From positions 1,228,987-1,252,044 of the forward strand of contig NW_006922148.1 of the NCBI RefSeq assembly GCF_000298275.1: DNA of 23,058 nt. The letters run 5' to 3'. The stretch is from Orycteropus afer (Eukaryota). The number at the start of each line of letters is the position of its first letter. The stretch's first letter is position 1. A program made the translations under genes and the position numbers. Of this stretch, positions 2,861 through 22,593 are shown piece by piece. The notes beneath the pieces were generated by a model. It ran no database searches. It was given only the letters and a program-made list of their open reading frames with translations, and had not been told where the DNA came from.

Positions 2861-3061
2861 AAAAAAAACCCAAAAAAAAACAAAAAACCAAACTCACTGC
2901 TGTTGAGTTGATTCTGACTCATAGTGACCTCTCCATAGGTCCCTGAGGTGGTATGGAAGTAGATTGCCCAGTCTTCCTTCTGAGGAGTGGCTGATGGGTT
3001 TGAACCGTCAGCCTTCTGGTTAGCAGTCAAATGCTTTAGACACTATGCCACCAGAGTTCCC
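2861..3061 (-). mobile_element. AfroSINE-type SINE (copy C) of the second tail subfamily (tail '...GACTCA..GGCAGTGAGTTTGGTTTTTT', with an A-run on the + strand at 2861-2885). It is nested in the L1 with the TSD TCTTCAGTA(C/G).
   Basis: The tRNA-like head 'GGGAACTCTGGTGGCATAGTGTCTAAAGCATTTGACTGCTAACCAGAAGGCTGACGGTTCAAACCCATCAGCC' is read on the minus strand. Flanks are 'CTTCTTCAGTAC|' and '|TTTTCTTCAGTAG'. Confidence 0.8.
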
Positions 3062-3937: not shown

Positions 3938-4077
3938 AATTCAACTAATTTTTGTATGTTGTTCTTGTATCCTGTCAGTATGCAAAATCTCACAATAAGT
4001 CCAGTAATTTTTTTGCTAAGTCTCTTGGGTTTTCTATATATTGGGTCATATTATCTGCAACTAGGGATATTTTTCCA

Positions 4078-5600
4078 TCTTCTTTTGATGCTTCTTGCAT
4101 TGTTCAATATTTTGCCCATAGAATCCTTCAGGATTGCAACTCAAGGCTTTAATATTTTCTTCTGGTCTTTCAGCTTGAGAAATGCCAAGTATATTCTTTC
4201 CTTTTGATTTTATAACTCCAGGTCTTTGGACATTTCATTATAATATTTTACTTTGTCTTCTTGTGGTGCCCATTGAAATCTTATGTTCAACTCTTTCACT
4301 TCATCTTTTTTCCATTTGCTTTAGCTACTCTTTGTTCCAGATCAAGTTTCAGAGTCTCTTCTAACATCCAGTTTGGTCTTTAATTCATTGCATGTCTTTT
4401 TAATGACCTTTTTGTTTCTTCATGTATGGTATCCTTGATGTCATCCAACAACTCCTGTGGCTTTGGTCATTAGTGTTGAGTGCATCAAATCTATAGTTCA
4501 GATAGTCTCTACGTTCAGGTAGGATATACTCAAAGTTGTACTTTGGCTCTTGTGGTTTTGTTTTAATATTCTTCAGCTTCAACTTCAGCTTGCATAGGAT
4601 CAATTGATGGTCTTTTCTGCAGTTTCCCTTGACCTTGTTCTGACTGATGATATTGAGCTTCTCCATTGTCTCTTTCCACAGATATTGTTGATATGATTCT
4701 TGTGTATTCCATCCAGTTATATCCACGTGCATTTTATATTGTTGAAAAGTGGTATCTGCAATAAGTAATTCATTAGTCTTGCAAAATTCTATCATGTGAT
4801 CTCCAGTATAGTTTTATATCGCCAACATCATATTTTCCAACAATTGATCCTCCTCCTTTGTTTCCAACTTTTGTGTTCTAATCACCAGTAATTATCAATA
4901 CATCTTGATTGAATGTTTGGTCAATTTCAGAGTTCGGAAGTTGGTACTTATCTTCAATTTTTTCATCTTTGGCTTTAGTGGTTGGTGAGTAAATTTGAAT
5001 AATAATTGTATTAACTGATTTTTCTTGTAGGCTGATGGATGTTGTCCTGTCATTGACACAATGTACTTTATGATAGATTATGAAATATTCTTTTTGACAA
5101 TGAATGTGATGCCATTCCTGTGCAGTTTTTCATTCCTGGCATAGTTGACCCTATGTTTGTATGATTCACATGGCTAGTGCCTGTCCATTTCACCTCACTA
5201 ATGCCTAGGATATTGATCTTTATGTGTTCCATTTCAGTTTTGATCACTTCCAGTTTTCTAAAATTCACGTTTTCTACATTCCATGACTCAGTTATTAATA
5301 GATGTTTGTAGCTATTTCTTCTCATTTTGAGTTGTCCCAGATCAGGAAGTGAAGATCTTGAAAGCTTTATTCTATCCACATCATTAAAGTCATCTCTACT
5401 TTGATAAGGAAGCTCTTACTCAGTTGTATTGTGAATACTTTGCAGCCTGAGGGGCTCATCTTCTGGTACTATATCTGGCAGTGTTCCATTGCTAGTTATA
5501 AAGGTTTCAGTAGCTTATTTTTTTCAGAGCTAAATCACTACTTCTGCTTGTTAGTATGTCTTAGTCTGGAAACTCTGCTGTAGTCTGCCCACTACAGGTG
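4078..5600 (-). mobile_element. RTE/BovB-type LINE, copy 3. It covers the 5' region (5'UTR, AP-endonuclease domain and the linker to the start of RT) and is degraded. It abuts the L1 at ~4078.
   Basis: The minus ORFs 5068..5379 ('VIKTEMEHIKINILGISEVKWTG') and 4400..4795 ('LLIADTTFQQYKMH...HQLILCKLKLKLKNIKTKPQEP') match the BovB endonuclease ('VVKQEMARVNIDILGISELKWTG', 'LVIANTLFQQHKRR...HELLIAKFRLKLKKVGK'). The nucleotide sequence is collinear with the reverse complement of RTE copy 2 (15440-17200). Confidence 0.8.
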
Positions 5601-6879: not shown

Positions 6880-7055
6880 CAGAGCATGGGGTTTGGAGTC
6901 AGAAAGACAGACAGGAGTCAGAGGAAAGACAGGAGTCAGAATCCTTGGTTTGTTCTTTTCTAGTGCTTTGACTTTGAGGAAGTTATTTAACTTCTTTGTG
7001 CCTCAGTTTCCAGATGTGCAAAATGGGAATAATCACCCATTGGTGTTGTGACTTT
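6880..7055 (+). mobile_element. MIR (ancient tRNA-derived SINE) fragment.
   Basis: The MIR core 'TGACTTTGAGGAAGTTATTTAACTTCTTTGTGCCTCAGTTTCCAGATGTGCAAAATGGGAATAAT' compares with the MIR consensus '...GACCTTGGGCAAGTTACTTAACCTCTCTGAGCCTCAGTTTCCTCATCTGTAAAATGGGGATAAT'. Confidence 0.7.
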
Positions 7056-8040: not shown

Positions 8041-8230
8041 TTGTTGTTGTTGTTGTTATGTGCCGTCGAGTCAGCCCCGACTCATAGCGACCCCTCCTTG
8101 AGTTTCCGAGGCATTATCACTACGGAAGTAGGATTGCCCAACCTTCCTTCCAAGGAGTGGCTGGTGGGTTTGAACCGCCAGCCTTCTGGTTAGCAGTCAA
8201 GTGCCTTAGGCACTATGCTACCAGAGCTCC
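8041..8230 (-). mobile_element. AfroSINE-type SINE (copy D), full length, with a 12-bp TSD TTT(A/G)TAAAGGCT.
   Basis: The sequence is '(TTG)n TTATGTGCCGTCGAGTCAGCCCCGACTCATAGCGACC...CACTATGCTACCAGAGCTCC'. Flanks are 'GTTTATAAAGGCT|' and '|TTTGTAAAGGCT'. Confidence 0.9.
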
Positions 8231-8558
8231 TTTGTAAAGGCTAGAGCCCCTAGAGCCCCTCAACACTTCCCTGGTGCCCTATACACCATAGCTTTTAGCA
8301 AATCCAATTGTGGACAACATTTTATAATAGGCCCCACCCCCACCCCATTTTGGTGTCTTTGGTGACTATAAATTGTTAAATATTTTTCCTTATTAGTACC
8401 ACTGTTTATTAAAAAATACCAAATATTTAAAAATTCCTGCTTTTTCTTGGTAAGGGAGTGATGTGATAAAACTATCCTTTTACAAAGATTAATAGGAAAG
8501 AAGACAGTAAGATAGAGTGGGATGGAAAAGGTTTTATTCAGGAGCTATCTAGGCAGGA

Positions 8559-8741
8559 GGGAGCTCTGGTAGCATAGTGCCTAAGGCACTTGACTGCTAA
8601 CCAGAAGGCTGGTGGTTCAAACCCACCAGCCACTCCTCGGAAGGAAGATGGGGCAATCTACTTCTGTAGTGATACTGCCTCGGAAACCCAAGGAGGGGTC
8701 TCTATGAGTTGGGTCCGACTTGACGGCACACAACAACAACA
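8559..8741 (+). mobile_element. AfroSINE-type SINE (copy E), full length. It is in inverted orientation relative to copy D, 330 bp away.
   Basis: 'GGGAGCTCTGGTAGCATAGTGCCTAAGGCACTTGACTGCTAACCAGAAGGCTGGTGGTTCAAACCCACCAGCCACTCC...GGTCTCTATGAGTTGGGTCCGACTTGACGGCACACAACAACAAC'. Confidence 0.9.
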
Positions 8742-12383: not shown

Positions 12384-12409
12384 ATATATATATATATATA
12401 TATATATAA
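12384..12409. repeat. (TA)n microsatellite (~12 units).
   Basis: 'GATATATATATATATATATATATATAAAATC' read directly. Confidence 0.95.
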
Positions 12410-13284: not shown

Positions 13285-13471
13285 GTTGTTGTTGTTGTTA
13301 TGTGCTGTTCAGTTGGACCCGACTCATAGTGACCCCTCCTTGGGTTTCTGAGGCAGTATCACTATGGAAGTAGATCGCCCAGCCAACCTTCCGAGGAGTG
13401 GCTTGGGGGGTTTGAACCGTCAGCCTTCTGGTTAGTAGTCAAGTGCCTTAGGCACTATGCTACCAGAGCTC
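13285..13471 (-). mobile_element. AfroSINE-type SINE (copy F), full length. It is inverted relative to copy G, ~70 bp away.
   Basis: '(TGT)n TATGTGCTGTTCAGTTGGACCCGACTCATAGTGACCCCTCC...CACTATGCTACCAGAGCTC'. Confidence 0.85.
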
Positions 13472-13542
13472 TTACCCTTACACTATTAAATTCAATCTGA
13501 CAGTCTCCGTCTTTTAATTAGGTTGTTTTTGTTTAGACCATA

Positions 13543-13654
13543 GGAGCACTGGTAGCGTAGTGCCTAAGGCACATGACTGCTAATCACACAAATAAGTTCA
13601 AACCCACTAGCCACTCCTTGGAAGGAAGGTTGGGCAATCTACTTCCATAGTGAT
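13543..13654 (+). mobile_element. AfroSINE-type SINE (copy G/H), 5' segment. The SINE is split by an RTE insertion and its 3' segment lies at 14983-15056.
   Basis: 'GGAGCACTGGTAGCGTAGTGCCTAAGGCACATGACTGC...GGGCAATCTACTTCCATAGTGAT' stops where the antisense RTE 3' end begins. The SINE resumes at 14983 with 'GATACTGCCTCGGAAACCCAAGGAGGGGTCGCTATGAGTCGGGTCCGACTCGATGGCACATAATAACAACAAC'. Confidence 0.85.
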
Positions 13655-14982
13655 GTTGTTTTTGTTGTTAGGTGCCATTGAGTCATTTCCGACTCATAGC
13701 GACCCCATGCACAGTAGACTGAAACACTGCCTGATCCCATGCCAGCTCCATGGTCCCTGCTATACTTGAGCCCATCATCACAGCCACTGTGTCAATCCAT
13801 CTCGTTGAAGGCCTCCCCCTCTTTCGTTTATCCTCCATCCTACCAAGCATGACATCCTTCTCCAAGGAATGGTTCCTTCTGACAACATGACCAAAATAGG
13901 TGAGACGAAGTCTGGCCTTTCTCGCTTCCAAGGAGCATTTCGGCTGCACTTCCTCCAGGACAGATGTGTTAGTTCTTTTAACAGTCCATGGTACTTACAG
14001 CATTCTTTGCCAGCACCACAACTCAAAAGCATCAACTCTTCTTCGGTCTTCCTTATTCATTGTCCAGCTCTCACATGCATACGAGGTGATTTTACATATC
14101 ATGGCTTCTGTCAGGTGCATGTTAATCCTCAAGGAGACATCCTTGCTCCTCAGCACTTGAAACAGTTCCTTTGCAATTGACTTTCCCAGTGCCACACGTC
14201 ATCTAATCTCCTGACTGCTGCTTCCATTGGCATCGATTGTAGAACCAAGCAATGTGAATTCTTTGACAACCTCAGTCTTCTCTCCATTTATTATGATGCT
14301 GCTTATTGGTCCAGTTGTGAGGATTTTTGTTTTCTTTATATTAAGATGTAATCCATACTGCAGACTGTGTTCTTCAACCTTAATCAGTAAGTGCCTCAAG
14401 TCATCCTCACTTTCAGCAAGCAAAGTTGTATCGTGTGCATATCTCAGGTTGTTAATGATTCCTCCTCCAATCCTGATGCCACGTTTTCCTTCATATAGTC
14501 CAGCTTCTCGGTTTATTTGCTCAGAATATAGATTGAATAAGTGTGGGGAAAGGATACAACCCTGACGCACTCCCTTCTTGATTTTAAACCATGTAGTGTC
14601 CCCTTGTTCCATTCGAACGACAGCCTCCTGGTGAAAGTAGGTGAAGTTCTTCATGAGTACAATCAAGTGTTCAGGAATTCCATTCTTCTCAATGTTATCC
14701 ATAATTTGTCATGATCCACACAATCAAATGCCTTTGCATAGTCAATAAAACACAAGTAAACATCTTTCTGGTATTCTTTGCCTTGAGCCAAGATCCATCT
14801 GACATCAGCTATGATATCCCTTGTTCCATGTCCTCTTCTGAATCCATCTTCCACCTCTGGAAGTTCTCTGTCAATATACTTCTGCAACCGTTTTTGAATT
14901 ATCTTCAGTAAGATCTTACTTGCATGAGATATTAGTGATATTGTTTTATAATTTCCACGATCTGTGGGAATTATATCCATAA
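13655..14982 (-). mobile_element. RTE/BovB-type LINE, copy 1. It is the 3'-terminal 1.3 kb (RT C-terminal half to the 3' end), 5'-truncated, and is inserted into AfroSINE G/H with the TSD CCATAGTGAT (13645-13654) / CCATAATGAT (14976-14985).
   Basis: Minus ORFs include 'ISLISHASKILLKIIQKRLQKYIDRELPEVEDGFRRGHGTRDIIADVRWILAQGKEYQKDVYLCFIDYAKAFDCVDHDKLW' and 'GVRQGCILSPHLFNLYSEQINREAG...RYAHDTTLLAESEDDL'. These match BovB RT 'IALISHASKVMLKILQARLQQYVNRELPDVQAGFRKGRGTRDQIANIRWII...YFCFIDYAKAFDCVDHNKLW' and 'GVRQGCILSPCLFNLYAEYIMRNAG...RYADDTTLMAESEEEL'. The 3' terminus read on the minus strand is 'GGTCGCTATGAGTCGGAAATGACTCAATGGCACCTAACAACAA'. Confidence 0.9.
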
Positions 14983-15056
14983 TGATACTGCCTCGGAAAC
15001 CCAAGGAGGGGTCGCTATGAGTCGGGTCCGACTCGATGGCACATAATAACAACAAC
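14983..15056 (+). mobile_element. AfroSINE copy G/H, 3' segment (the continuation of 13543-13654).
   Basis: See 13543-13654. The joined parts reconstitute a complete SINE. Confidence 0.85.
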
Positions 15057-15224
15057 ATGTTTAGACCATTTACAGTTAATGTAATTACTGATATGATCTG
15101 ATTAATAGTTACCTTCTTGCTAATGGTTTTCTATTTTTCTTATTATTTATTATTTTTTTGGTTTCCTTTTCTTGTATTGAACTTTTTTTTCAATGATTCC
15201 ATTTTATCTCCATTATTGGCATAT

Positions 15225-15345
15225 TTATTACATCTCTTAAAAATCTTTGGTGGTTGGTCTATAGCTGCCCTTTACAATATGGTAGCCACTAGACATATGT
15301 GAATATTTAAATTTAATTAAATAAAATTAAATATTTACATATGGC
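15225..15345. mobile_element. MER-type non-autonomous DNA-transposon (hAT MITE-like) fragment with an AT-rich imperfect palindrome. The family assignment (MER5/MER30-like) is from memory and tentative.
   Basis: 'CAATATGGTAGCCACTAGACATATGTGAATATTTAAATTTAATTAAATAAAATTAAATATTTACATATGGCTATTGGCTA' resembles the human repeat motif 'TGGTAGCCACTAGCCACATGTGGCTATTTAAATTTAAATTAATTAAAATTAAAT'. It may instead be part of the RTE 5'UTR. Confidence 0.3.
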
Positions 15346-15885
15346 TATTGGCTAACTTATTGGATAGCAAACCTTTTGTTTTATCATTTCAGTGGTCTAT
15401 TGGTCAACACTGCTTTAGGGTTTACTATATACAACTTTTGAGCCCCTCACATTGGAAGGAACTCAAAATACAACTGGGAGAAAGCTGTGTCCTCAAAGTA
15501 GAATTGACCTTAATGATATGGGTGGAATAAAAGCTTTTGGGACCTACATTTGCTGATGAGGCACCAACAAAATGGAAAGAAACAGCTGTAAACATTCATT
15601 AATAATCAGAATATGGAATGTACAAAGGATGAATGTAGGGAAATTGGAAGTTTTCAGTAATTAAATGGAATGCATAAAGATAGTACCCCTAGGCATTAGG
15701 GAGCTGAAATGGATTGGTATTAGCCATTTTGAATCAGACAGTTGTATGGTGTGCTATGCTGGGAATGCCAATTTGAAGAGAAATGGTGTCACACTCATCA
15801 TCAAAAAGAACATTTCAATATCTATCCTGAAGTACAATACTGTCATTTATAGAATAATACCCATATGGCTATAAAGAAGACCAGT

Positions 15886-16069
15886 TAAACCAAACTCACT
15901 GCCATTGAGTGGATTCTGACTCATAGGGATCCCCTTTGGCTTTCCAAGGGGGTAAATATTTATGGAAGTAGATTGCCCAGTCTTCCTTCTGCAGAGTGGT
16001 GGGTGGGTTTGAACTGCCAGCCTTCCGGTTAGCAGTCAAATGCCTTAGGCACTATGCCACTAGAGATCC
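15886..16069 (-). mobile_element. AfroSINE-type SINE (copy I) of the second tail subfamily ('AAACCAAACTCACTGCCATTGAGTGGATTCTGACTCATAG' on the + strand). It is nested in RTE copy 2.
   Basis: The head on the minus strand is 'GGATCTCTAGTGGCATAGTGCCTAAGGCATTTGACTGCTAACCGGAAGGCTGGCAGTTCAAACCCACCCACC'. The RTE reading frame resumes immediately afterwards ('NTTITRIYAPTTKAKDE' matches BovB 'ITVIQVYAPTSNAEEA'). Confidence 0.85.
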
Positions 16070-16937
16070 TAATACTACTATTACTCGAATCTATGCACCA
16101 ACCACTAAAGCCAAAGATGAATAAATTGAAGATATTTACCAACTTCTGCAGTCTGTAATCAGCCAAACATGCAATCAAGATTGCTTATGATTGGAATGCA
16201 AAAGGTAGAAATGAAGAATTAACAATAGTTGGACAATGTGGCCTTGGTGATAGAAATGACTTGGGAGATCAGCATTTTGCAAGACCAATGACTTATTCAT
16301 TGCTAATATGTTTCTTCGGCAACATAAATGGGGCTATATATGTGTACCTTGCCAGATGGAATACACAGAAATCAGATTGATTACCTCTGTGGAAAGAGGA
16401 GATGTAGAAGCTCAGTATCTCCTGTGAAAGCAAGACCAGGAGCTGATTGTGGAACAGACCACCAACTGCTCATATGCAGGTTCAACTTGAAGCTGAAAAA
16501 AATTAAAACTAAGTCCATGAGAGCCAAAACATGACCTTGATTATATCTCATCTGAATTTAGAAACCATCTGAAGAATAGATTTGATGCATTGAACATCAG
16601 TGACCAAAACCCAGACGAATTGTAGAATGACATCAAGATGACAACAAAGAAACAGTCATTAAAAAGGCAAGAGAGGAAGAAAAGACCAAAATGGATGTCT
16701 GAAGACTGTCTGAAACTTGCTCTTGAATGCAGGATAGCTAAAGCAAGTGGAGGAAATGACAAGGTAAAAGAACTGAATATTTTGAAGGGTACCTTGAGAA
16801 GACAACATAAAGTACTGTAATGAAATGTGCAAAGACCTGGAGTTAGAAAACCCAAAAGGAAGAACACAGTCAGCATTTATCAATCTGAAAGAACTGAAGA
16901 AAACATGCAAGCCTTGAGTTGCAATATTGAAGGATTC

Positions 16938-17108
16938 TGTGGGCAAATATTGGGAGCTCTGGTGGCATAGTGCCTAAGGCATGTGACTGCTATCTGGAAG
17001 CCTGGTGGTTCAAATCCATCAGCCACTCCTCAGCAGGAACATTGGGCAATCTACTTCCATAGAGATACTGCCTTGGAAACCCAAAGAGGGGTTGCTATGA
17101 GTCAGATC
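16938..17108 (+). mobile_element. AfroSINE-type SINE (copy J), nested in RTE copy 2 with a perfect 11-bp TSD TGGGCAAATAT. It lacks the usual 3' tail.
   Basis: Flanks are 'CTGTGGGCAAATATTG|GGAGCTCTGGTGGCATAGTGCC...' and '...GTTGCTATGAGTCAGATCTGA|TGGGCAAATATGAATGATG'. RTE copy 3 shows the empty-site sequence 'TATGGGCAAAATATTGAACAATG' (reverse complement of 4105-4127). Confidence 0.85.
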
Positions 17109-18754
17109 TGATGGGCAAATATGAATGATGCAGGAAACCTCAAAAGAGGATGGAATACACAGAGTCACTGTAAACAGAAAGAGTTGGTTGATGTTCATTT
17201 GTTTCAGAAGGTTGCATATGATCAAGAACCACTAGTATTTAAGGAAGAAGTCAAAGCTGCACTAAAGGAAGTGGCAAAGAGCAAGGCTCCAGGAGTTGAT
17301 GGAATACCCATGTTCCAACAAACGGATGCTGTGCTGGAGGCACTTGGCCACTTATGCCAAGAAATTTGGAAGACAACTATCTGGCCAACTGACTGGAGGA
17401 GACCAATGTTTGTGCTCATTCCAAAGAAAGGTGATTCAACAGAATATGGGAATTATTGAATATCTTTAATATCACATGCAAGATTTTGCTGAGAATAATT
17501 TAAAAATAGTTGCTCCAGTTTATTGACAGGGAACTTCCAGAAATTTAAGCTGGATTCAGAAGAGGATGTGGAATGAGGGATATTATTGCTGATGTGAGAT
17601 GGATCTTGGCTGAAAGCAAGCAATACCAGAAAGATGTTTACCTGTTGACTATGCAAAGACACTTGATTGTGTGGCTCGTAATGAATTATGGATAAAATTG
17701 AAAATAATGGGAATTCCAGAACACTTAACTGTGCTCATGAGGAACCTGTACATAGACCAGGAGGCTGTTGTTTGAACAGAACAAGGGGATACTGCATGGT
17801 TTTAAATCAGTAAGGGTGTGCATCAAGATTGTATCCTTTCCCCATACTTAGTCAATCTGTATGCTGAGTAAATAGTTTGAGAAACTGGACTATATGAAAA
17901 AGAATGCAGCATCAGGGTTGGAGGAAAACTCATTAACAGCCTGCAATATGCAGACAACACAACCATGTTTGCTGAAAGTAAAGATGACTTGAAGCACTTA
18001 CTGATGAAGATTGTAGACTACAGCCTTCAGTATGGATTACACCCCAACATAAAGTAAACAAACATTTTTACAACTCGACCAACAAGCAACATCATAATAA
18101 ATTGAGAAAAGATTGGAGTTGTCAGAGATTTTATTTTTCTTGGATCTACAATCAACACTCAAGGAAACAGCAGTCAAGAAACCAGACATTGAATTGCACT
18201 GAGCAAATCTGCTGCGAAAGACCTCTTTAAAGTGTTGAGAGAGGCAAAGATGTCATTTTAAAGACTAAGGTGCACCTGATGGAAGCCATGGTGTTTTCTA
18301 TCACCTCAAATGCATGTGAAAGCTGGAAAATGAATACGAAAGTCCAGAGAAGAGTTGATGCCTTTGAATTATGGTGTTTGTGAAGAATACTGAAAATACC
18401 ATGAACTGCTAGAGGAACAAACCAATCTGTCCTGGAAGAAGTGCTCCTTAGAGGTGAGAATGGCCAGACTTCGTCTCACCTACTTTGGTCATTTTGTCAG
18501 AAGGAACCATTCCCTGGAGAAGGCTATAATACTTGGTAAAGTACTGGGTGGGGTAAGTGGTCAGTGACAAAGGGGAAGACCCTCAGTGAGATGGACTGAC
18601 ACAGTGCCTATAAGGATGCTCTGATGTGTAGCAAAGATTGTGAGCATGGAGCATGACTGGGCAGTGTTATGTTCTCTGGTACACAGGGCTCATGTGAGTT
18701 GGAGGTGACTTGATGGCACCTAACAACAACAATATGAATATTGTAGCATCCAAA

Positions 18755-19254: not shown

Positions 19255-19451
19255 GGATCTCTGGTAGTGTAGTGCCTGAGACATTTGACTGCTAACCAGA
19301 AGGCTAGGGGTTCAAACCCACCAGACACTCCTTGAGAGGAATGTCAGGCAATCTACTTCGTAGTGATACCGCCTCGGAAGCCCAGGGAGGGGTCTCTATG
19401 AGTTAGATCCGACTCGATGGAAGTGAGTTTGTTGTTTGTTTTAGTTTATTA
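19255..19451 (+). mobile_element. AfroSINE-type SINE (copy L) with the second-subfamily tail ('...GACTCGATGGAAGTGAGTTTGTTGTTTGTTTTAGTTTATT').
   Basis: 'GGATCTCTGGTAGTGTAGTGCCTGAGACATTTGACTGCTAACCAGAAGGCTAGGGGTTCAAACCCACCAGACACTCC...GGTCTCTATGAGTTAGATCCGACTCGATGGAAGTGAGTTTG'. Confidence 0.8.
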
Positions 19452-21278: not shown

Positions 21279-21468
21279 TGTTGTTGTTGATGTTATGTGC
21301 CCTCGAGTCAGCCCTGACTCATAGCGACCCCTCCTTGGGTTTCCGAGGCAGTATCACTACGGAAGTAGGATTGCCTAACCTTCCTTCCGAGGAGTGGCTG
21401 GTGGGTTTGAACCGCCAGCCTTCTGGTTAGCAGTCAAGTGCCTTAGCTACTATGCTACCAGAGCTCCC
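21279..21468 (-). mobile_element. AfroSINE-type SINE (copy N) inserted in the half-L1 with an 11-bp TSD TTTTGGCTTGT (21268-21278 and 21469-21479).
   Basis: '(TGT)n GATGTTATGTGCCCTCGAGTCAGCCCTGACTCATAGCGACCCCTCC...CTACTATGCTACCAGAGCTCCC'. The flanking direct repeats are identical. Confidence 0.9.
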
Positions 21469-21489
21469 TTTTGGCTTGTAGTTGTCCTC

Positions 21490-22593
21490 ATTTGTCAATT
21501 GATGTCTCTGGTTCCCTGTTTACAGTCTTGTAGGCTTATTTACTTTGTATACTTCCATAGCTGGGTTGGTTTCTGGGTTATATCATCATGTGTTAATGGT
21601 CATTGTTATTGCTTCTCTGTCCAAGGGGCTCCCTTTAGCATCTCTTCTAAGGTTGATCTGGTTTTAATAAATCTCCTTCATTTCTGCTTATCTACAAATG
21701 TCCTAATTTCCCCCATCATATTTGAGGGATAATTTTGTTTGGTACATAATTCTTGGTTGGAATTTTTTCTTTTTCACGGTTTTATATGTACCATCCCATT
21801 GTCTTCTCTTCTGCATGGTTTCTGCTGAGAAATCTGAGCTTAGTCTTCTTGGTTGCCCCTTGTAGGTAACTTTTTGTTTCTCCTGTGCTGCTTTGAGGAT
21901 TCTTTATTTGTCTTTGGTTTTGGTGAGTTTGCTGATGATATTTCTTGGTGATTTTCTTTTGGGTTCTGTCCTGTTTTGGGTTCGTTGGACTTCCTGAATG
22001 GATATATTCTTATCTTTCATCCTACCAGAAAAATTCTGTTCCAACAAATCTTCTACAATTTTCTCTGTGGTTTTATTTGTCTCTTCCTGTTCTGGAATTC
22101 CGATTACATGTAGGTTGTTCCTTTTTATGGTATCCCACATGAACCTTAAGCTTTTTTCATTTTGTTTTGATCTTTTTTTTTTCTGATTGATCCCTTTCCA
22201 AAGAAGTATTGAGGTACTTGCCTTCAATCTTACTAATTCTCTCTTCAAGTGATTCAATTCTAATCCTTTGCCCATCTTATCTATTTTTGAAAATTTAATA
22301 TTAATCTTCTGGATTTCTGTGCATAGATTTTGTATCATTTCTAATTTTTCATTGATTTTGTCATTTTGTTGTATTGTCTTTCAGAATTTTTCTAGGGTTT
22401 TCTCTGTGTTTTCCTTGATCTGCCTCTCAATTTGTTGAAAATACCTAAATATAATTCTTTTGAATTCCTTATGAGGGAGTTCCAGTGCTGCATCTTCCTC
22501 AGGGATGTGTTTTGGGTCTGTATCCTGCCTTGTTTCTCCTGCTTTATCTTGCTTCTTTGTGTGGACTGTGGTGCTCTGTTGTTTCTGAGGCAT
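21490..22593 (-). pseudogene. L1 ORF1p-like coding region of the half-L1. It is disrupted (an in-frame stop near 21895 and a frame break near 22340-22380).
   Basis: Minus-strand translations: 'EFKRIIFRYFQQIERQIKENTEKTLEKF' (coiled-coil part), 'WDTIKRNNLHVIGIPEQEE...LLEQNFSGRMKDKNISIQEVQRTQNRTEPKRKSPRNIISKLTKTKDK*RILKAAQEKQKVTYKGQPRRLSSDFSAETMQARRQW'. These match human ORF1p 'WDYVKRPNLRLIGVPESDV...IIQENFPNLARQANIQIQEIQRTPQRYSSRRATPRHIIVRFTKVEMKEKMLRAAREKGRVTLKGKPIRLTADLSAETLQARREW' (from memory). Confidence 0.8.

What the first reader, a model, noticed from the sequence alone, without database searches (positions are those of the whole stretch)
13543..15056. An RTE fragment inserted into its own dependent SINE, with an exact 10-bp TSD
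An AfroSINE is cleanly split. Its 5' part (13543-13654) ends '...CTACTTCCATAGTGAT' and its 3' part (14983-15056) resumes 'GATACTGCCTCGG...'. Between them lies a 1.33-kb 5'-truncated RTE 3' end in the opposite orientation. The junctions carry the direct repeat CCATAGTGAT / CCATAATGAT, made of SINE sequence. This is a resolved nested event. The SINE was resident first, and the RTE, the LINE that is thought to mobilise AfroSINEs, then landed in it. It shows RTE was still active after this SINE copy inserted, and that RTE target-primed insertion here generated a ~10-bp TSD.
Basis: seen in the sequence. Interest (0 to 1): 0.5.

Follow-up and report, generated by a model that had tools for sequence, protein, structure and literature searches.

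The report
RTE LINE fragment nested in AfroSINE
An old mammalian SINE copy was later split by a truncated copy of its partner LINE (RTE). This is a real, cleanly resolved nested insertion, but it is an ordinary kind of event already catalogued by the thousand.

Summary
An AfroSINE-type element (13542-15057, + strand) is split after 13654 and resumes at 14987. Joined with one copy of the junction repeat, it is collinear with the intact copies in the window. It also keeps its own perfect 12-nt target-site duplication, TGTTTAGACCAT (13530-13541 and 15058-15069).

The insert (13655-14969, minus strand, 1,315 nt) is the 3' 42% of a ~3.1-kb RTE/BovB-type LINE. It has an RT domain (RVT_1, E=3.5e-32) and is 79% identical in DNA to Elephas maximus RTE copies up to their last base. 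It ends in a (CAA)n-like tail that abuts the duplication. Its last ~50 nt match the SINE tails.

The duplication is TCCATAGTGAT / TCCATAATGAT: 10-11 nt with one G/A mismatch, so it is not "exact" as the title says. Six filler bases (14970-14975) lie at the 5' junction.

The TSD length, the first-base A (in RTE orientation) and the tail all match published genome-wide RTE1 statistics. The same window also holds the reverse case: two SINEs inside a near-full-length RTE.

The parts
13530..13541 (+). Left copy of the SINE's own target-site duplication, TGTTTAGACCAT (12 nt, exact)
   Evidence: It occurs only twice in the window, immediately outside the two SINE ends.
13542..13654 (+). 5' part of the AfroSINE-type element (tRNA-related head plus middle region). 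Its last 11 nt are TSD copy 1 of the RTE insertion.
   Evidence: It aligns to positions 1-114/115 of intact copies. It differs from the local consensus by 12.5%, mostly in one cluster at 13583-13598.
13644..13654 (.). RTE target-site duplication, copy next to the RTE 3' tail: TCCATAGTGAT. It keeps the SINE-consensus G.
13655..13669 (-). Microsatellite-like RTE 3' tail. It reads AACAACAAAAACAAC in RTE orientation, i.e. (CAA)n-type, and directly abuts the TSD.
   Evidence: Elephas copies end ...CTAACAACAACAACAAC. PMC6007223 Table 2 lists (CAA)n for RTE1_LA.
13655..14969 (-). 5'-truncated RTE/BovB-type LINE fragment, 1,315 nt. It covers RT motifs through the end of the ORF, the stop codon and the tail. 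It carries one frameshift and three premature stops.
   Evidence: RVT_1 E=3.5e-32. Best protein hits are Elephas maximus at 71-76%, then squamates and Bos at 50-58%. It is 79.3% identical in DNA to Elephas RTE copies over 1,310-1,318 nt, ending at 14969.
13662..13706 (-). RTE 3'-terminal segment shared with the SINE tails (the LINE-SINE partner recognition region). It forms an inverted repeat with the SINE's own tail at about 15008-15057.
   Evidence: (insert positions 1271-1322 hit seven SINE tails at 79-87%).
14970..14975 (.). Six filler nucleotides (ATTATA on the + strand) at the RTE 5' junction. They match neither the RTE copies nor the SINE.
   Evidence: ungapped alignment to Elephas copies stops at 14969, and only 1 of 7 upstream bases matches. 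Whether these bases are untemplated is inferred.
14976..14986 (.). RTE target-site duplication, copy next to the truncated RTE 5' end: TCCATAATGAT. It has one G>A difference from copy 1.
14987..15057 (+). 3' part of the AfroSINE-type element, including the RTE-derived tail and (CAA)n-like end
   Evidence: It differs from the local consensus by 4.4%.
15058..15069 (+). Right copy of the SINE's own target-site duplication, TGTTTAGACCAT

Best explanation
This is a two-step nested retroposition in an afrotherian-type genome.

Step 1. A tRNA-derived, RTE-tailed SINE of the AfroSINE group, of the (CAA)n-tailed subtype, inserted by target-primed reverse transcription. It duplicated 12 nt of the target (TGTTTAGACCAT).

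Step 2. An RTE/BovB-clade LINE transcript was later integrated into that SINE in the opposite orientation.
- The RTE endonuclease nicked the window's + strand between 13654 (T) and the base that is now 14987 (A).
- The freed 3'-OH (...GTGAT-3') primed reverse transcription from the (CAA)n end of the RTE RNA.
- Synthesis stopped, or the template was lost, after about 1.3 kb. This gave a copy lacking the 5' 1.8 kb (5' UTR, endonuclease and N-terminal RT region).
- The second strand was cut 10-11 nt away, which produced the TSD TCCATAGTGAT. Six extra nucleotides were added at the 5' junction.

The copy was dead on arrival and has decayed since. It carries one frameshift and three premature stops, and one TSD copy has a G>A change.

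Shown directly: collinearity, both TSD pairs, the identity and extent of the insert, the intact 3' end and the orientation. Inferred: the enzymatic steps (standard TPRT), the untemplated origin of the filler, and the dating.
For: 1. The SINE halves are collinear with intact copies. Keeping both junction copies gives an 11-nt insertion relative to every other copy.
2. An outer, perfect 12-nt TSD brackets the whole composite.
3. The insert is RTE-type.
   - RVT_1, E=3.5e-32.
   - Its nearest proteins are Elephas RT models, followed by squamate and Bos RTs. This is the BovB/RTE host range.
   - It aligns over 1,310-1,318 nt at 79% to two 3.09-kb Elephas elements.
   - One of these elements (L001) encodes an Exo_endo_phos endonuclease upstream of the RT.
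4. The 3' end is complete. The ORF stop TAA is followed by AACAACAAAAACAAC, which abuts the TSD.
5. The right TSD copy is not RTE sequence. RTE copies read differently at that position.
6. The junction fits published RTE signatures. PMC6007223 reports RTE-clade TSDs of mostly 7-15 bp, most often 10-12. For RTE1_LA (193,947 copies, 124,680 with TSDs) it reports a (CAA)n tail and A as the first TSD base. Here the TSD is 10-11 nt and reads ATCACTATGGA in RTE orientation, with a TTT run at P-13 to P-11.
7. Decay is consistent with the order of events. Three stops in 435 codons fit about 4-8% neutral decay of the RTE copy. The host SINE differs from the local consensus by 9.4%.
8. Both TSD copies carry CCATA where the local SINE consensus has CCGTA. 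That CpG change, or source variant, therefore pre-dates the RTE insertion.
Against: - No empty-site or SINE-only allele could be examined. No mammalian genomes are available in the tools, and exact-match scans of the metagenome and prokaryote collections for the unique flank found nothing.
- The insert differs by about 20% from a majority consensus of three other RTE copies, more than the SINE differs from its consensus. I attribute this to subfamily bias: two of the three copies are young Elephas elements that are 92.6% identical to each other.
- The filler bases and the TSD mismatch make the exact nick positions uncertain by 1 nt at each end.
- The host species was not identified.
Confidence: 0.95

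Rival explanations
1. Endonuclease-independent capture: an RTE cDNA or RNA fragment was patched into a pre-existing double-strand break in the SINE by repair, rather than by canonical endonuclease-initiated TPRT.
For: There are six non-templated-looking bases at the 5' junction, and the copy is strongly 5'-truncated.
Against: Repair-mediated captures typically lack TSDs, often delete target sequence and often lack the 3' tail (established knowledge from L1 studies). Here there is a clean 10-11-nt duplication, no loss of SINE sequence and a complete (CAA)n 3' end at the junction. The first TSD base is A, as is typical of RTE1. Filler bases at 5' junctions are compatible with normal TPRT.
Confidence: 0.03
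2. There is no nesting. Two unrelated partial SINE copies (one 3'-truncated, one 5'-truncated) happen to flank an RTE fragment, or the arrangement arose by rearrangement or assembly error between repeats.
For: The window is very repeat-dense, with 14 SINE-related hits in 23 kb. The left half is more diverged (12.5%) than the right half (4.4%).
Against: The break points coincide to the nucleotide, with an 11-nt overlap. The chance of >=10/11 at a fixed register is 1.4e-5, and no other pair in the window at this spacing reaches it. A perfect 12-nt TSD brackets the composite. The excess divergence of the left half is one local cluster at 13583-13598, not a uniform age difference.
Confidence: 0.01
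3. The order is the reverse: the SINE inserted into, or was built around, a pre-existing RTE fragment.
For: SINE-into-RTE events do occur in this very window (16951-17111 inside the RTE at 15439-18732).
Against: Here the RTE fragment is contiguous from its truncation point to its tail, and the SINE is the interrupted element. The duplicated 11-mer is SINE sequence, not RTE sequence. A single SINE insertion cannot deposit its two halves on either side of an inverted LINE.
Confidence: 0.01

Closest known systems
RTE1-type (RTE/BovB-clade) LINE insertions of afrotherian genomes, e.g. RTE1_LA of elephant
   Same: RT homology. Collinear DNA alignment to Elephas copies up to the last base. ORF stop immediately followed by a (CAA)n tail. 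5' truncation. TSD of 10-11 nt beginning with A in element orientation. All of these are as reported for RTE1_LA in PMC6007223.
   Different: Only 77-79% identical to the two Elephas copies fetched, and 75% to the other RTE in the window, so the subfamily is not assigned. Six filler bases at the 5' junction. No comparison with the curated Repbase/Dfam consensus was possible.
AfroSINE family (Nikaido et al. 2003; RTE-mobilised tRNA-derived SINEs of Afrotheria), (CAA)n-tailed subtypes such as AFROSINE2 / AFROSINE-2_LA
   Same: tRNA-like head with A/B-box-like motifs, an RTE-derived 3' region and a (CAA)n end. Homologous along its length to SINE copies found in the Elephas loci. The window also holds the GGTTT-tailed type listed for AFROSINE in PMC6007223 Table 2.
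   Different: The window's copies lack about 23 nt (GCAGTTCTACTCTG...) that are present in the two Elephas copies. The SINE is far denser here (14 hits in 23 kb) than in 42 kb of Elephas DNA (2 old fragments). This suggests a lineage-specific subfamily of a non-elephant afrotherian. The species was not determined.
Nested-transposon target analysis (Ichiyanagi & Okada 2008, as cited in PMC6007223) and TinT 'transposition in transposition' chronology (PMC3014933, PMC2169234)
   Same: A TE interrupted by another TE gives the pre-insertion target sequence, the TSD and the relative order of activity.
   Different: Those studies use thousands of such cases statistically. This is a single instance.

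Membership tests
RTE/BovB-clade LINE (the insert) | Reverse-transcriptase domain of non-LTR type | tested here: met
   Pfam RVT_1, E=3.5e-32, 112 bits, residues 6-246 of the frame-corrected translation.
RTE/BovB-clade LINE (the insert) | Closest relatives are RTE/BovB elements rather than L1, L2 or CR1 | tested here: met
   The top hits are Elephas maximus RT models (71-76% identity), followed by Podarcis, Anolis, Varanus and Bos RTs at 50-58% over 95-98% of the query. This is the known BovB/RTE host range. The source names are uncurated, and no formal RT phylogeny was built.
RTE/BovB-clade LINE (the insert) | Family architecture: a unit of about 3.1-3.3 kb with an APE-type endonuclease followed by the RT | tested here: met
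   This was tested on the family, not on the truncated insert. Two Elephas elements that align with the insert share 3.09 kb. The upstream ORFs of one of them (L001) hit Exo_endo_phos, E=1.2e-10. The window's own copy at 15439-18732 spans the same unit.
RTE/BovB-clade LINE (the insert) | Very short 3' UTR ending in a short simple repeat, not poly(A) | tested here: met
   ...LNGT, then the stop TAA, then CAACAAAAACAAC, then the TSD. The Elephas copies show the same layout.
RTE/BovB-clade LINE (the insert) | TSD of about 7-15 bp (mode 10-12) with first base A for (CAA)n-tailed RTE1 | tested here: met
   10-11 nt, ATCACTATGGA in RTE orientation, compared with PMC6007223. One instance cannot test a statistical preference.
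AfroSINE (the host element) | tRNA-derived 5' head with pol III A and B boxes | tested here: inconclusive
   By eye, the consensus contains TAGCATAGTGC (A-box-like) and GGTTCAAACCC (B-box-like). ARAGORN and Rfam call no tRNA in the window.
AfroSINE (the host element) | 3' region derived from, and shared with, the partner RTE LINE | tested here: met
   The last 50-52 nt of the RTE insert match seven SINE tails in the window at 79-87%. The literature describes AfroSINE as bipartite and RTE-derived (PMC5786205).
AfroSINE (the host element) | Homology to SINE copies of afrotherian genomes, or to the curated consensus | tested here: met
   It aligns head-to-tail with SINE copies in two Elephas maximus loci, apart from a ~23-nt indel. 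The curated Repbase/SINEBase consensus is not available in these tools.
Nested TPRT insertion (the event) | The host element is collinear once the insert and one TSD copy are removed | tested here: met
Nested TPRT insertion (the event) | An empty (SINE-only) site exists at the orthologous locus of an outgroup species | not testable with these tools
   No mammalian genome collection is available. Exact 27-mer scans of metagenome contigs and genome contigs found nothing.

The most novel reading that the evidence does not exclude
RTE integration might be biased towards its own family's sequences, i.e. partner SINEs and other RTE copies. One route would be pairing between the (CAA)n/3'-tail RNA and related target DNA. 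On that reading, the three RTE/SINE mutual nestings in this 23-kb window would reflect homing rather than chance. My evidence does not exclude this, and it gives no support either. RTE and SINE sequence together make up roughly a third of the window, so chance nesting is expected. The insertion point also lies in the SINE middle region, not in the shared tail.
Probability: 0.03. Interest if true: 0.4.

Novelty: already known. Interest (0 to 1): 0.07.

Why it matters
It matters little by itself. It is a clean textbook example of a LINE landing in its own non-autonomous partner. It gives one exact RTE target site (GGCAGT|ATCACTATGGA|AGTAG), one TSD length and one relative-age datum.

Such cases only become informative in bulk, through TinT chronologies or target-site logos. 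For RTE-clade LINEs and elephant RTE1/AfroSINE those analyses have already been published (Ichiyanagi & Okada 2008; PMC6007223). If the locus were compared across afrotherians, the two insertions could serve as presence/absence phylogenetic markers. That is also an established use.

Tried and rejected
1. I first read the insert's N-terminus IIPTDRGNY as PIP[KKGDP]TECGNY with a 15-nt in-frame deletion (after). I rejected this. Ungapped alignment to the Elephas copies pairs IPTDRGNY with DPTECGNY, and RTE homology simply ends at 14969. That leaves six filler bases.

2. I first read the second RTE (17121-18732) as another RTE inserted into a SINE tail, with an AATATGAAT repeat. I rejected this. 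Alignment to a full Elephas element shows one long RTE at 15439-18732. The SINE at 16951-17111 inserted into it, duplicating 11 nt of RTE sequence, TGGGCAAATAT.

3. I tried dating the insert against a majority consensus of three other RTE copies, which gave 20% divergence. I rejected this as biased, because two of the three are young Elephas copies 92.6% identical to each other. I used stop-codon counts instead.

4. Rfam and ARAGORN found nothing in the window.

5. Scans of metagenome and prokaryote-genome collections for the unique right flank, as a long shot for host-contaminant contigs carrying the orthologous locus, found nothing.

6. The top 120 protein hits include no near-identical copy (best 76%). 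The orthologous RTE copy is therefore not retrievable through the protein index.

Full report
**What is in the sequence**

Reading 13300-15300 shows a SINE that starts at about 13542/13543 (GGAGCACTGGTAGCG...) and runs to ...CTACTTCCATAGTGAT at 13654. The sequence then switches abruptly to GTTGTTTTTGTTGTTAGGTGCCATTGAGTC.... About 1.3 kb later, at 14976, TCCATAATGAT is followed by ACTGCCTCGGAAACCC...GGCACATAATAACAACAACA, ending at 15057.

A BLAST of the intact copy at 8559-8741 against the window finds 14 SINE-related segments. Two of them are 13543-13654 (reference positions 2-115) and 14980-15054 (reference positions 109-183).

I aligned nine other SINE copies from the window with two reconstructions of the split element. 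With one junction copy retained, the element is gap-free across the junction. With both retained, it shows exactly one 11-nt insertion relative to every other copy.

The neighbouring intact copy (13290-13473, minus strand) carries TCCATAGTGAT once, directly followed by ACTGCCTC.

The duplication is TCCATAGTGAT (13644-13654) and TCCATAATGAT (14976-14986). The left copy keeps the consensus G, so the right copy has the G>A change.

At a fixed register, the chance of >=10/11 is 1.4e-5. Sliding the same 1,332-nt spacing along the whole window gives one such pair out of 21,715, and it is this one.

The composite is bracketed by a perfect 12-nt direct repeat, TGTTTAGACCAT, at 13530-13541 and 15058-15069. 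These are its only two occurrences in the window. This is the SINE's own target-site duplication. The two halves therefore belong to one original SINE insertion.

**Identity of the insert**

- On the minus strand, the insert translates into a reverse transcriptase with one frameshift and three premature stops. It hits Pfam RVT_1 at E=3.5e-32.
- A protein search returns Elephas maximus RT-containing gene models at 71-76% identity. Podarcis, Anolis, Varanus and Bos RTs follow at 50-58% over nearly the full query. This is the host range of BovB/RTE elements.
- I fetched two of the Elephas loci. The insert aligns to them at 79.3% over 1,310-1,318 nt.
- The two Elephas elements share a 3.09-kb unit. 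The upstream ORFs of one of them (L001) hit Exo_endo_phos at E=1.2e-10. This is the RTE architecture.
- The insert corresponds to the last ~1.30 kb of that unit, so it is 5'-truncated by about 1.8 kb.
- Its 3' end is complete. The ORF ends ...LNGT-TAA and runs straight into AACAACAAAAACAAC, which touches the TSD at 13655.
- The last 50-52 nt match the tails of seven SINE copies in the window at 79-87%. This shared 3' end is what marks the RTE as the SINEs' partner LINE. PMC5786205 describes AfroSINE as RTE-derived.

**The 5' junction**

Ungapped alignment to the Elephas copies ends at 14969. Only one of the next seven bases matches the RTE copies. The bases 14970-14975 (ATTATA) are not SINE sequence either. 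I take them as six filler nucleotides, a known feature of LINE 5' junctions. That they are untemplated is an inference. My earlier idea of a 15-nt internal deletion was dropped.

**Mechanism**

In RTE orientation the reconstructed empty site is ...gggtttccgaggcagt|ATCACTATGGA|agtagattg....

Standard target-primed reverse transcription then implies three things:
- a first nick on the window's + strand after 13654;
- priming on the (CAA)n end of the RTE RNA;
- a second nick 10-11 nt away.

Published genome-wide data give RTE-clade TSDs of 7-15 bp, most often 10-12. For elephant RTE1_LA (193,947 copies, 124,680 with TSDs) they give a (CAA)n tail and A as the first TSD base, with a weak T excess near P-10 (PMC6007223). 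This instance has 10-11 nt, first base A and TTT at P-13 to P-11. It is therefore typical.

**Relative age**

Nesting fixes the order: SINE first, RTE second.

As a consistency check, the host SINE differs from a consensus of five local (CAA)n-tailed copies by 9.4%. A simulation shows that three stops in 435 codons are most compatible with about 4-8% neutral decay, and that 20% is disfavoured (P(<=3 stops)=0.03).

The raw 20% distance to a three-copy majority consensus is inflated. Two of those copies are young Elephas elements from a later RTE lineage.

Both TSD copies share CCATA where the local consensus has CCGTA. That difference was therefore already present when the RTE arrived.

**Context**

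The same window contains the reciprocal situation. A near-full-length RTE lies on the + strand at 15439-18732 and is interrupted by two AfroSINE-type copies. One of them (16951-17111) is flanked by an exact 11-nt duplication of RTE sequence, TGGGCAAATAT. LINE and SINE activity therefore overlapped in time, as expected for partners.

The SINE family aligns head-to-tail with SINE copies in the Elephas loci but lacks about 23 nt that they carry. It is also much denser here than in the 42 kb of Elephas sequence. The source is probably a non-elephant afrotherian, but I could not identify it.

**Comparison with what is known, and verdict**

Using TEs nested in TEs to recover target sites and to order activity is established practice. 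Examples are the nested-transposon analysis of Ichiyanagi & Okada 2008, cited in PMC6007223, and the TinT method (PMC3014933, PMC2169234).

Nothing about it departs from known RTE/AfroSINE biology.

The one test I could not run is the orthologous empty-site comparison. No mammalian genomes are available in the tools, and long-shot scans found nothing.

Interest is low, and the novelty rating is "already known".

Noticed in passing
window 15439-18732 (+), with insertions at 15889-16069 (-) and 16951-17111 (+): A near-full-length RTE is interrupted by two AfroSINE-type copies, the reverse nesting of the finding. The second SINE is flanked by an exact 11-nt TSD of RTE sequence, TGGGCAAATAT (16940-16950 / 17112-17122). 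It lacks roughly the last 25-30 nt of the usual SINE tail. The first SINE has at most a 3-4-nt duplication (TAA/TTAA).
   Followed up: partly
window 4073-5509 (-): Another RTE fragment, this one the 5' half (5' UTR and endonuclease region). It is 77% identical to the Elephas element, and its ORFs contain ...ILGISEVKWTG...
   Followed up: partly
window 21904-22338 (-): A 144-aa ORF matches the L1 ORF1 RBD-like domain (Transposase_22, E=9e-12). It is an L1 fragment, so at least two LINE clades are present in the window.
   Followed up: partly
window 2916-3060, 15881-16069, 19255-19440 versus 664-827, 8048-8231, 8559-8741, 13290-13473, 21285-21469: There are two SINE tail types. The more diverged copies end GGCAGTGAGTTTGGTTT (GGTTT-type). 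The less diverged copies (2-9% from the local consensus) end GGCACATAACAACAACA, like the RTE tail. This matches the AFROSINE versus AFROSINE2-type tails tabulated in PMC6007223.
   Followed up: partly
window 13583-13598: The split SINE has a tight cluster of about 9 substitutions plus a 2-nt deletion in its tRNA-like head (TAATCACACAAATA--AG versus the consensus TAACCAGAAGGCTGGCGG). This accounts for most of the left half's 12.5% divergence. The cause is unknown.
   Followed up: no
window 13290-13473 (-) and 13542-13654 (+): An intact minus-strand SINE lies about 70 bp upstream of the split plus-strand SINE, forming a head-to-head inverted pair. The RTE tail (13655-13706) and the split SINE's own tail (15008-15057) form a further ~50-nt inverted repeat, 1.3 kb apart.
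   Followed up: no
window 14663-15058 (-): A 131-aa ATG-initiated ORF starts in antisense SINE sequence and reads across the TSD and filler into the RTE RT. It is almost certainly a chance chimeric ORF.
   Followed up: no
protein hits (P0001, P0002, P0017, P0024, P0031, P0032): Elephas maximus RefSeq models named as isoforms of host genes (ST3GAL6-like isoform X2, TMEM61 isoform X1) are RTE RT ORFs lying in introns of those genes. BovB-like RTs are also filed under Staphylococcus aureus, Mycoplasmopsis arginini and Babesia ovata. These look like bovine-host DNA contamination in those assemblies.
   Followed up: partly
whole window versus L001/L002 (Elephas, 42 kb): SINE density is about 14 hits per 23 kb here, against 2 old fragments in 42 kb of Elephas DNA. 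The window's SINE lacks about 23 nt that are present in the Elephas copies. The source genome is probably an afrotherian other than an elephant. It was not identified.
   Followed up: partly
window 6895-6941 and 12384-12408: There is a small 18-nt tandem repeat (2.6 copies) and an (AT)12 microsatellite. Nothing else was found by TRF.
   Followed up: no
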